Source: Candidatus Bathyarchaeia archaeon (GTDB lineage Archaea > Thermoproteota > CALKCG01 > B24). From it: a stretch of DNA of 64,000 nucleotides. The notes beneath the pieces were generated by a model. The model saw nothing but the letters and a program-made list of their open reading frames with translations. It was not told the DNA's origin and did no database searches. Positions 30,322 through 33,663 of the stretch are shown here, in pieces. Made by a program: the position numbers and the translations under genes. The stretch's first letter is position 1. Each line of letters opens with the position of its first letter. The stretch lies in the NCBI GenBank assembly GCA_038870975.1, contig JAVZJD010000001.1:224001-288000 (forward strand), given 5' to 3'.

Positions 30322-31665
30322 TCACTTTTTGAAGAAGAGCGGTAGATACTGTGCATGAGCATTGAGAAGGTCATCTAAGAGTTTACCAACTTCATCCGGT
30401 TTCAGTTTCGAGGCAACTTGTGGATCTTGAAGGAGCGCTTGAAACGCTAAACTTCTATCACCAGTCAAAGCAGCTTCAACTGTAAGTCTCTGAACTTCAA
30501 TATGATTACTTAACACTGCTGCCAATGGCGGTGGAAGTTTACCCACGTGTATTGGAATTATTCCATAACCTCCTACTACAGAGGATACTTCTACAATGGC
30601 ATCGAACGGAAGGTTTTCTATCGCTCCTCTGTTGAGAGTATTGACTACAAATACTTCGTTCCTGTTCTCCAAGAGTGCTTCAATTATATCTACTACTAAT
30701 ACGGCTTCTCCGCTAGGTAAAACATCGAGGCTTAAATCCCTCATGCCAGTAGCCATATCTTCGACAAGCTTCTCCCATTTAGCTGTTCGTTGTTGCTCCT
30801 CCACCATATCATGGACTTTCAAACCAAATTTCATTTTGAGCCCCTGTAATCTACCCTTATACTCCTCTTCTAAGCCACATAGAAATGGGAAGAATTCGGT
30901 CCAGTGGGACCAGCAGTATGGAAGCACACCATAGTTTTCTACAAATAGCTTCTCAACTAGGTTTGAAGATCTTTCCTTTACTAATTGAAGACCGTCTCTC
31001 CCATCTTTGAGTTTTAAGCTTAATATAGCCGCACAATGGTTTATACCTGCTGCTGGTGCAGGTGTTAAAATATCCTCAGGATTTACGCCTACAATTTCAG
31101 CTAAATAGTTGGGATTTGACGGTATTGAAGAACACGTGCAAAGACCTACGACTTTTATCTTTGAATTCCTAACCATAGCCATACAGTTGGTGGGCACTGG
31201 ATTGGTATAGTTGAAGACCCAAGCCTTTGGAGACACCTCCTCCAATTCTTTTGCCATTCCCACTAGAACAGGTATGTGACGAAATGCACGCATTATACCG
31301 CCTGGACCTACTGAATCACATATGGCCATGTAAACTCCATATCTTGCGGGTATCTCTATATCGTACTCCCAAGCTTTTAAACCGCCGACTGCTATAGCGG
31401 TTATAACAAAGTCTGCGTCTGTTAATGAGTCTAACCTATTTGTCGTAGCTTCGACTTTCAGAGAAGCATTTGTCTTTTCGATCAGTCTTTGGGAGAGCCG
31501 GAACATTACGTTAAGCCTATGCTCATCTATGTCCATTAGACATATTGTACTATCCTGTAGAAGCCTAGACTCGATAAACAACCTCATGAGCTGAGGTGTG
31601 AAAGTACTGCTTCCACCACCTACTATAGTTATTTTGTAGCCCATATTGAGAGTATATTCAATCAA
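30322..31665 (-). CDS. Glycoside hydrolase family 4 (NAD/Mn-dependent, alpha-galactosidase-like)
   Basis: KITIVGGGS, DSVGPGG, NYTNP, GLC, GINH, NRGAIENLP. Confidence 0.9.
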   Translation of the reverse strand: MIEYTLNMGYKITIVGGGSSTFTPQLMRLFIESRLLQDSTICLMDIDEHRLNVMFRLSQRLIEKTNASLKVEATTNRLDSLTDADFVITAIAVGGLKAWEYDIEIPARYGVYMAICDSVGPGGIMRAFRHIPVLVGMAKELEEVSPKAWVFNYTNPVPTNCMAMVRNSKIKVVGLCTCSSIPSNPNYLAEIVGVNPEDILTPAPAAGINHCAAILSLKLKDGRDGLQLVKERSSNLVEKLFVENYGVLPYCWSHWTEFFPFLCGLEEEYKGRLQGLKMKFGLKVHDMVEEQQRTAKWEKLVEDMATGMRDLSLDVLPSGEAVLVVDIIEALLENRNEVFVVNTLNRGAIENLPFDAIVEVSSVVGGYGIIPIHVGKLPPPLAAVLSNHIEVQRLTVEAALTGDRSLAFQALLQDPQVASKLKPDEVGKLLDDLLNAHAQYLPLFFKK

Positions 31666-31703
31666 CAGCGACTATTTATAGGTTTTGACGGATCTAATCT
31701 GAC

Positions 31704-31767
31704 GCGGCTCAGACAAATGCCTTACGTTCATAGATTTGTCACAGTAACTTTGACTCATCACAGCCGC
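31704..31767 (-). ncRNA. C/D box guide sRNA with two guides targeting 23S rRNA helices 69 and 71
   Basis: Minus strand: GCGGC stem, C box GTGATGA, guide GTCAAAGTTACT, D' GTGA, C' TCTATGA, guide ACGTAAGGCATTTGT, D box CTGA, GCCGC stem. TATA-like TTTTAAAA about 25 nt upstream. Confidence 0.85.
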
Positions 31768-31861
31768 TAGATTGATTATACTTGAACTATTTTAAAAGGT
31801 TTTTACATGTAAACGGTAAAGATTTATTTAAGAAAGCATTTTCATAGTCTCTGAGGAAGTC

Positions 31862-33205
31862 TTGACCCTAGAAAGCCTAGGAAGATCCCTTAGAGACGCA
31901 TTAAACAAAGTTTTAAAGGCATCTAGGATGGATAAGGATCTAGTAAAAGGTCTAGTAAATGATCTTGTCAGAAGCCTTCTTCAGGCCGATGTCAAAGTAG
32001 ACCTCGTAATAGATCTTGCAAAGCGAATTGAAAACAGAGCCTTAAACGAAAAACCACCGTCTGGTTTTACCGAGAGAGAGTACCTTGTGAAGATAGTCTA
32101 TGATGAGATTGTGAGTCTTTTAGGTGGAGAAGGTGTTCCGCCTTTCACGATAAAACCAGGTAGGTTAAATGTCTACATGCTTGTTGGCTTACAGGGCTCA
32201 GGTAAAACTACAACCGCTTGCAAACTCGCTTTTTACTACCAGAAAAGAGGAGTCAAATGCGGGCTTATATGTGCAGACGTCTACAGACCAGGAGCATACC
32301 ATCAACTTAAACAGTTGGGGGATATGGTCAACATACCGGTTTATGGAGAACCAGATGGGAAAGACCCTGTTAAAATATCGTTAAATGGTTTAAAATTCTT
32401 CCGTGATGGTAAACGCGAACTTGTGATAATAGATACTGCTGGAAGACATAAGGATGAAGAATCGCTTATGAGGGAAGTGAAAGAGCTTCATGAGGCCATA
32501 AAACCTGATGAAGTTATTCTAACGATCGACGCTACGATAGGTCAGCAAGCCTATAATCAGGCTAAAGCATTCCATGAAACGGTTAAAGTCGGTTCTATAA
32601 TATTGACTAAAATGGACGGTTCTGCAAGAGGAGGGGGAGCATTATCGGCGGTAGTTGCTACAGGGGCGCCTATAAGGCTTATAGGTATCGGTGAAAAAAT
32701 TGAGGATTTAGAGGTATTTAACCCTAGAAGGTTTGTCGCCAGATTATTGGGATTTGGGGATATTGAAGGACTTATAGAGAAGTTTAAACAAGCTGAAATC
32801 AAGGTTTCTGAAAAAGAGGCTAAAGAAGTTTTAACTGGAAAGTTTACGCTTGAAGATCTGTATAAACAGATGGAGAACTTGAGAAAAATGGGGCCTCTCA
32901 AATCCATCGTAAGTCATCTACCCGGTTTCGCCTACAGTCTTCCAAATGGATCTCTCGAAGAGGTTGAAGTAAAGATGGATAAGTGGAAGGCTATAATAGA
33001 GTCTATGACTAGAGAGGAGAGAATAAACCCTAGGATTTTAAACTCTTCGAGAATACGTAGAATAGCCCGCGGTGCTGGAGTTGCTGAAAAAGAGGTAAAA
33101 GACCTAGTTAAATATTATGAGCAGACTGTTAGGCTTCTAAAAGCTATGCGTAGCAGAAGAGACTTGCTGAGAATGGGGAGACTATTTAGTTCAAATGTAT
33201 CTTAA
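31862..33205 (+). CDS. srp54: Signal recognition particle 54 kDa protein
   Basis: GLQGSGKTT, DTAGRH, TKMDG.ARGGG, M domain SRIRRIARGAG. Confidence 0.97.
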   Translation: MTLESLGRSLRDALNKVLKASRMDKDLVKGLVNDLVRSLLQADVKVDLVIDLAKRIENRALNEKPPSGFTEREYLVKIVYDEIVSLLGGEGVPPFTIKPGRLNVYMLVGLQGSGKTTTACKLAFYYQKRGVKCGLICADVYRPGAYHQLKQLGDMVNIPVYGEPDGKDPVKISLNGLKFFRDGKRELVIIDTAGRHKDEESLMREVKELHEAIKPDEVILTIDATIGQQAYNQAKAFHETVKVGSIILTKMDGSARGGGALSAVVATGAPIRLIGIGEKIEDLEVFNPRRFVARLLGFGDIEGLIEKFKQAEIKVSEKEAKEVLTGKFTLEDLYKQMENLRKMGPLKSIVSHLPGFAYSLPNGSLEEVEVKMDKWKAIIESMTREERINPRILNSSRIRRIARGAGVAEKEVKDLVKYYEQTVRLLKAMRSRRDLLRMGRLFSSNVS

Positions 33206-33345
33206 CTGGCGCTCAACACTAAGTTCACTTAACAATTTTCCTAATGTGGACTGTAAATCTGGCATTTTAGAATTGACAGTTTAAGGAAATGCTTAAAAGA
33301 GCGCGATTCATTATCAAAAATGTTTGAAAACAGGGGGGAGCATTA

Positions 33346-33636
33346 ACGCCCTATTCCAAGGGTTTTAGAAGAAAAACTAGACAACTTTTACGTCTTAGGA
33401 GACGAGAGAATCCGCTCAAAGTAACCTCTATCTTGAGAGAGTATAAACTAGATGAGCCTGTTGTAATTGATATAAATCCGAGTATTCATAAAGGTATGCC
33501 TCATAGAAGGTACCACGGTAGGGTTGGAATAGTTACTGGAAAAAGAGGAAGGGCTTATATATTGAAGATGACGATAGGAAGCGTGGAGAAGACTCTCATA
33601 GTTAGACCAGAGCATCTGAAACCATTAACTCATTAA
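33346..33636 (+). CDS. rpl21e: Ribosomal protein eL21; apparent ACG start codon
   Basis: xPYSKGFRRKTR...IHKGMPHRRYHGRVG...VRPEHLK. GGGGGGAG RBS 5 nt before ACG; in-frame TGA at 33325. Confidence 0.9.
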   Translation, partial: TPYSKGFRRKTRQLLRLRRRENPLKVTSILREYKLDEPVVIDINPSIHKGMPHRRYHGRVGIVTGKRGRAYILKMTIGSVEKTLIVRPEHLKPLTH

Positions 33637-33663
33637 AATCTAATTTGATGGGGGAGGGATAGA

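What the first reader, a model, noticed from the sequence alone, without database searches (positions are those of the whole stretch)
31704..31767. Unannotated dual-guide C/D sRNA predicted to install two eukaryote-type Am marks in 23S rRNA
Seen: complete C/D'/C'/D layout with a terminal GCGGC/GCCGC stem and its own TATA-like element, in the divergent GH4-srp54 spacer. The D' guide GUCAAAGUUACU is complementary to the helix-69 sequence AGUAACUnUGAC, and the D guide GUAAGGCAUUUG to CAAAUGCCUUGC (one G-U pair); both target sequences are recalled consensus, since the rRNA is not in the window. The N+5 rule gives adenosines equivalent to E. coli A1913 and A1938, i.e. yeast 25S Am2256 (snR63) and Am2281 (snR13). 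Inference: one archaeal sRNA guides two sites that yeast assigns to separate snoRNAs, a possible ancestral arrangement at an intersubunit bridge region.
Basis: partly seen in the sequence, partly recalled or inferred. Interest (0 to 1): 0.75.

Follow-up and report, generated by a model that had tools for sequence, protein, structure and literature searches.

The report
Conserved two-site rRNA methylation guide RNA
This is a real small guide RNA of an uncultured archaeon, built to direct sugar methylation of two nearby ribosomal-RNA adenosines that yeast and humans also methylate; it is a widely conserved new member of a well-known class, and using one RNA for both sites looks like a later simplification rather than the ancestral state.

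Summary
Confirmed: a 64-nt box C/D sRNA on the minus strand (31767-31704) with its own conserved TATA element, in a Bathyarchaeia (order B24) genome encoding fibrillarin, Nop5 and L7Ae. Both guides pair with the host 23S, 25 nt apart; N+5 gives A1913 (D') and A1938 (D), yeast Am2256 and Am2281. Corrections: the host loop reads CUCUGA, so the D' guide has one A.C mismatch; C' is AUGAACG. The same RNA occurs in about 17 Thermoproteota families, including ammonia oxidisers; no Rfam family. Both sites were already predicted in Sulfolobus and Ignicoccus (Dennis 2015); the D guide is that of Sac-sR125/Iho sR109, whose D' guide hits G1906 instead. The ancestral claim is not supported: Sulfolobus, Ignicoccus and an Asgard genome use two RNAs with both guides at D boxes, as eukaryotic snoRNA models do. 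No same-order RNA was found in 150 Asgard genomes, but one Asgard clade has a mirror-image version. Expression evidence is two reads; methylation is untested. The scan found this family before on other DNA (e1-5479112, e1-5474309).

The parts
31704..31767 (-). box C/D sRNA gene, 64 nt
   Evidence: family model hit E 3.3e-14, single copy; two RNA reads confined to about 31701-31759
31763..31767 (-). 5' arm of terminal stem (GCGGC)
   Evidence: stem covaries in 43 homologues, 6 of 7 pairs with changes on both sides
31755..31761 (-). box C (GUGAUGA)
31743..31754 (-). D' guide for the helix 69 loop; the -5 base (31747) pairs with host 23S A2065 = E. coli A1913; A.C mismatch at -8 (31750)
31739..31742 (-). 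box D' (GUGA)
31725..31731 (-). box C' (AUGAACG); its A5 and C6 can pair with U2 and G1 of D', replacing the consensus U.U and G-C
   Evidence: alignment; the C-G form of this pair occurs in 10 of 94 homologues, G-C in 42
31713..31724 (-). D guide for the helix 70/71 junction; the -5 base (31717) pairs with host 23S A2090 = E. coli A1938
   Evidence: same core as Sac-sR125, Iho sR109, SNORD15 and SNOR75
31709..31712 (-). box D (CUGA)
31704..31708 (-). 3' arm of terminal stem (GCCGC)
31790..31805 (-). BRE-TATA-like promoter of the sRNA, TATA ending 22 nt before the stem
   Evidence: TTT(T)A element at similar spacing in three congeners, two family members and most other homologues printed; function inferred
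31673..31686 (-). separate BRE-TATA-like element of the downstream GH4 gene (probable ATG at 31644)
   Evidence: the congener's GH4 is called at 440 aa, matching this start; function inferred
30322..31644 (-). GH4 glycoside hydrolase gene, downstream neighbour, no functional link implied
31862..33205 (+). srp54, divergent neighbour

Best explanation
A stand-alone archaeal double-guide box C/D sRNA. It is transcribed from its own promoter (inferred), folds C/D into a kink-turn and C'/D' into a kink-loop, and binds L7Ae, Nop5 and fibrillarin (established pathway; genes shown present). Its guides pair with pre-23S rRNA on the helix 69 loop and 25 nt downstream (pairing shown), opening helix 69 and holding the two segments together, and fibrillarin 2'-O-methylates A1913 and A1938 by the N+5 rule (inferred). 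By descent it belongs to the Sac-sR125/Iho sR109 family, with a fixed D guide for A1938 and a D' guide that slides along helix 69 (G1906, A1912, A1913, 1920-1923 in different lineages). Here the slide landed on A1913, so one RNA does the work of two; no second guide for either site was found in the host.
For: Boxes, stem and promoter. Pairing above chance, with a combined score of 41 against the published double-guide cut-off of 32. Homologues in 14/17 genomes of the class, with the same layout in about 17 Thermoproteota families. Stem covariation. The guide base facing 1916 is G where the rRNA has C and U in Asgard where it has A. Machinery present. Two RNA reads confined to the gene. Sac-sR125 and Iho sR109 are published with A2204/G2172, Iho sR91 with A2179/G2211. 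No other host guide for these sites.
Against: No methylation data. Expression rests on two reads that may be one molecule. The D' duplex has a central mismatch and a non-consensus C'/D', so A1913 methylation is less certain than A1938. The family history rests on layout comparison; the sRNA tree is unresolved.
Confidence: 0.85

Rival explanations
1. Only the D guide methylates (A1938); the mismatched D' guide is a folding clamp on helix 69 that raises specificity and does not install Am1913.
For: A conserved A.C mismatch costs about 6 kcal/mol and is kept in 18 of 94 variants. The D' target slides between lineages, and 44 of 94 variants, mostly ammonia oxidisers, have the A1912 register. Clamp-only guides are published (Pyrobaculum sR33).
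Against: The -5 pair and positions -1 to -7 are Watson-Crick in the host; the A1913 register is kept in 49 variants across many families; the host has no other A1913 guide.
Confidence: 0.2
2. One RNA for both sites is the ancestral state of Thermoproteota plus Asgard; the Asgard mirror form arose from it by swapping guides, and Sulfolobales and eukaryotes later split it.
For: The layout is spread over many Thermoproteota families. An Asgard clade has one RNA for both sites. D/D' transposition of guides is a published process. It may well be ancestral within Thermoproteota alone.
Against: No same-order RNA in 150 Asgard genomes (best E 4e-5, D guide only). Ignicoccus and Asgard G281 share the identical pair [G1906+A1938] and [G1945+A1913]. 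The A1913 guide sits at a D box in Sulfolobus, Ignicoccus, Asgard, Giardia GlsR7 and plant snoR442.
Confidence: 0.15
3. Chance box-like sequence in an intergenic spacer.
For: No Rfam match at gathering score; fold z-score only -0.85.
Against: Conserved in over 100 genomes, covarying stem, two rRNA matches 25 nt apart, reads confined to the gene.
Confidence: 0.01

Closest known systems
Sulfolobus acidocaldarius Sac-sR125 and Ignicoccus hospitalis sR109 (Dennis et al. 2015, PMC4644070, Additional files 1 and 3)
   Same: Same D guide and predicted site (alignment A2204 = E. coli A1938), same order with the D' guide on helix 69; the family model built here picks up Sac-sR125 weakly.
   Different: Their D' guide targets G2172 (G1906) on the 5' strand; here it has moved 7 nt onto the loop, A1913.
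Sac-sR113 and Iho sR91 (same paper)
   Same: Guide the same A1913 site with nearly the same guide.
   Different: The guide sits at the D box; the partner guide is G1945 (sR91) or no helix 71 site (sR113).
Yeast snR63 and snR13, human U46 and U15 (SNORD15), plant SNOR75 and snoR442, Giardia GlsR7
   Same: Same sites, Am2256 and Am2281; the D-guide 14-mer matches the SNORD15 model exactly.
   Different: Separate RNAs. A short shared guide is forced by the shared target and does not prove common descent.
Unpublished Asgard mirror-image sRNA (this work, 15 copies read, e.g. G370, G380)
   Same: One RNA for A1913 and A1938.
   Different: Order swapped (D' = A1938, D = A1913); the guide fits the eukaryote-type CUAUGA loop without mismatch.

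Membership tests
Archaeal box C/D sRNA | Boxes C, D', C', D in order within 50-70 nt | tested here: met
   64 nt; C and D consensus, D' GUGA and C' AUGAACG with compensating pairs
Archaeal box C/D sRNA | Terminal stem closing the kink-turn | tested here: met
   5 bp; covariation 0.373 vs 0.187 in shuffles, above all slid controls
Archaeal box C/D sRNA | 10-12 nt guides complementary to rRNA with a Watson-Crick pair at N+5 | tested here: met
   both guides; D' has one mismatch, allowed by the double-guide rule
Archaeal box C/D sRNA | Host encodes fibrillarin, Nop5, L7Ae | tested here: met
Archaeal box C/D sRNA | Expressed as a discrete small RNA | tested here: inconclusive
   two reads in one metatranscriptome, confined to the gene, none on the flanks
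Archaeal box C/D sRNA | L7Ae binding and guided methylation | not testable with these tools
   needs pull-down, RiboMeth-seq or reconstitution
Sac-sR125 / Iho sR109 family | D guide for A1938 | tested here: met
Sac-sR125 / Iho sR109 family | D' guide for G1906 | tested here: not met
   D' guide targets A1913; a related composite, not the same two-target family
Any Rfam family | Score at or above gathering threshold | tested here: not met
   no hit; best 21.9 bits vs 38

The most novel reading that the evidence does not exclude
A single guide RNA for the equivalents of yeast Am2256 and Am2281 predates the Thermoproteota-Asgard split, survives in one order in Bathyarchaeia and ammonia oxidisers and in swapped order in an Asgard clade, and was split into two snoRNAs on the way to eukaryotes.
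Probability: 0.15. Interest if true: 0.55.

Novelty: new member of a known kind. Interest (0 to 1): 0.3.

Why it matters
Published work treats archaeal C/D guides as fast-turnover; this one is kept across about 17 families, including 19 of 19 sampled genomes of a family whose copies match named Nitrosopumilaceae. It marks A1938 and the helix 69 loop as methylation sites under long-term selection at intersubunit bridge B2a, where loss of yeast modifications alters translation accuracy (PMC2794176). It is testable in cultured ammonia oxidisers, and the layouts give a small model of how guides shuffle between D and D' boxes. It adds no new mechanism.

Tried and rejected
Rfam at gathering score: nothing in the window. 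The promoter scan is sigma-70 type and uninformative for archaea. Single-strand folding is not significant, as expected for C/D RNAs. An alternative host target explaining the A.C mismatch: none, the perfect complement occurs only in the gene itself. A same-order guide with the eukaryote-type loop sequence in metagenomes: 10 hits, none with a C box and stem. A loose helix 69 guide pattern in Asgard gave chance-level counts. A tree of the sRNAs was unresolved and is not used. Runs X2 and X3 had no reads (no test); X1 contigs cover only the flanking genes. Literature searches found no C/D catalogue for Nitrosopumilus or Asgard; the Pyrobaculum supplement is not held. Brockarchaeia as host was considered and rejected. 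The genome-contig scan stopped at 120 rows, so it gives no census. Euryarchaeota and DPANN were not searched.

Full report
Observation. The element lies on the minus strand, 31767 to 31704, between the divergent GH4 and srp54 genes. It has a 5-bp terminal stem, consensus C and D boxes, D' GUGA and C' AUGAACG. The alignment of 43 homologues fixes C'; its fifth and sixth bases can pair with D' in place of the consensus pairs. A TTTTAAAA element ends 22 nt upstream of the stem and recurs at similar spacing in relatives; GH4 has a separate TATA-like element at 31680-31673. Promoter function is inferred. No Rfam family reaches its threshold.

Host. A same-genus genome is GCA_018396755, listed as Bathyarchaeia, order B24, genus DTBU01 in a supplement of PMC11094006. 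The genome encodes fibrillarin, Nop5 and L7Ae. A rough scan found only a handful of other convincing guides (9 candidates against 1-4 with shuffled rRNA) and no second guide for 1906, 1913, 1938 or 1945.

Targets. The host 23S aligns without gaps to E. coli across helices 69-71. The D' guide places its fifth base on host A2065 (E. coli A1913) and the D guide on A2090 (A1938). The numbering is anchored by Dennis 2015 (A2178 = A1912) and by yeast pseudouridine 2258 = 1915, which makes these Am2256 (snR63) and Am2281 (snR13). The D' duplex has an A.C mismatch at -8 because the loop reads CUCUGA. Scores are 21 and 20; shuffled guides match as well in about 2% of trials each, and within 100 nt of the partner site in 4 of 5000. 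The sum of 41 passes the published double-guide cut-off of 32.

Conservation. A pattern scan returned over 60 archaeal copies, from Nitrosopumilaceae, Nitrososphaeraceae, Caldarchaeales and Bathyarchaeota. The terminal stem covaries. A covariance model hit 100 of 151 phylum genomes, 14 of 17 in the class and 29 of 81 in the main Bathyarchaeia class. The hits fall into two layouts sharing the A1938 D guide. In about 17 families the D' guide covers the helix 69 loop, as here. In four it covers the 5' strand (G1906); one of these genomes is S. acidocaldarius, matched by coordinates to Sac-sR125. Of 94 loop-type variants, 49 have the A1913 register and 44, mostly ammonia oxidisers, carry one extra base and give A1912. 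The A.C mismatch is shared by 18 variants, and in all seven such genomes checked the rRNA has C at 1916; its purpose is unexplained.

Expression. One hot-spring metatranscriptome gave two reads at least 99% identical, covering about 31701-31759 with nothing on the flanks, oriented as a minus-strand RNA would be in a stranded library. This fits but is thin.

What is known. Dennis 2015 lists Sac-sR125 and Iho sR109 with targets A2204/G2172 (A1938/G1906) and Iho sR91 with A2179/G2211 (A1913/G1945); Sac-sR113 carries the A1913 guide at its D box. Both sites were therefore already predicted in archaea, on two RNAs. Half of the 489 RNAs in that study are double guides, and composite or transposed guides are described in Pyrobaculum.

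Ancestry test. Earlier scan notes suggested that Asgard archaea use the two-RNA layout, so I tested it. From a Lokiarchaeia genome the model found no same-order RNA in 150 Asgard genomes; many are incomplete, so this is not proof of absence. The weak hits were real guides of other layouts: G1906+A1938, G1945+A1913, and 1920-1923+A1938. G281 holds exactly the Ignicoccus pair. A swapped-order search of 301 genomes found a G1940+A1913 RNA in about 20 genomes (target assumed from the conserved sequence, not checked on their own rRNA) and an A1938+A1913 RNA in 17, of which 15 were read. The latter puts A1938 at D' and A1913 at D and matches the CUAUGA loop of its hosts. Eukaryotic models show both guides at D boxes of separate RNAs. 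The simplest reading is two ancestral RNAs, each with a fixed D guide and a sliding D' guide on the other helix; a single RNA for both sites then arose at least twice, in mirror image. This is inference from layouts. The single RNA could still be ancestral within Thermoproteota.

Verdict. A real, well-supported double-guide C/D sRNA and an unannotated, widely conserved family, but of a known kind with known target sites. The ancestral reading is unlikely. Interest 0.3.

Noticed in passing
L161 (G002), L162/L163/L169 (G006, G007), L164, L165, L166, L167, L168, L349, L464-L467: 23S insertions, probably introns, of about 30 to 800 nt sit at E. coli 1925-1932, between the two guide targets, in at least ten genomes including close relatives of the host; simultaneous binding would need splicing first or looping out.
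   Followed up: partly
L010, L012, L013, L170-L184 and similar: Nitrosopumilaceae and many Nitrososphaeraceae copies have one extra base before D', moving the N+5 site from A1913 to A1912.
   Followed up: partly
L444-L457, L365: Asgard clade with the mirror-image RNA (D' = A1938, D = A1913), non-consensus D boxes and a longer terminal stem; lineage within Asgard not identified.
   Followed up: partly
L420-L439: A second Asgard group has an RNA with D = A1913 and a D' guide two bases shorter, predicted for G1940.
   Followed up: partly
G000:C1:1022906(-), C1:702897(-), C1:326888(+), C1:636205(+): Four more probable C/D sRNAs in the host, each behind a TATA-like element; one targets host 23S U2701 in the A-loop sequence, two target 16S.
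   Followed up: partly
L002 (G000:C1:504336-505972): The host 16S hit spans 1637 nt against a 1478-position model and the 23S 3085 against 2987; insertions or introns are likely.
   Followed up: no
L204-L207 (family f4 of the host order): Homologues lack a recognisable D' box and C'; the middle forms a short hairpin while both guides are kept.
   Followed up: no
L202 and L203 (G011); L229 and L230 (G192): Two genomes carry two related copies; the second G011 copy has a changed D' guide.
   Followed up: no
window 33206-33663: No plus-strand ORF for rpL21e was listed between srp54 and rpoF by the 60-aa scan apart from 33433-33636, which reads like its C-terminal part; probably an unusual start codon.
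   Followed up: no
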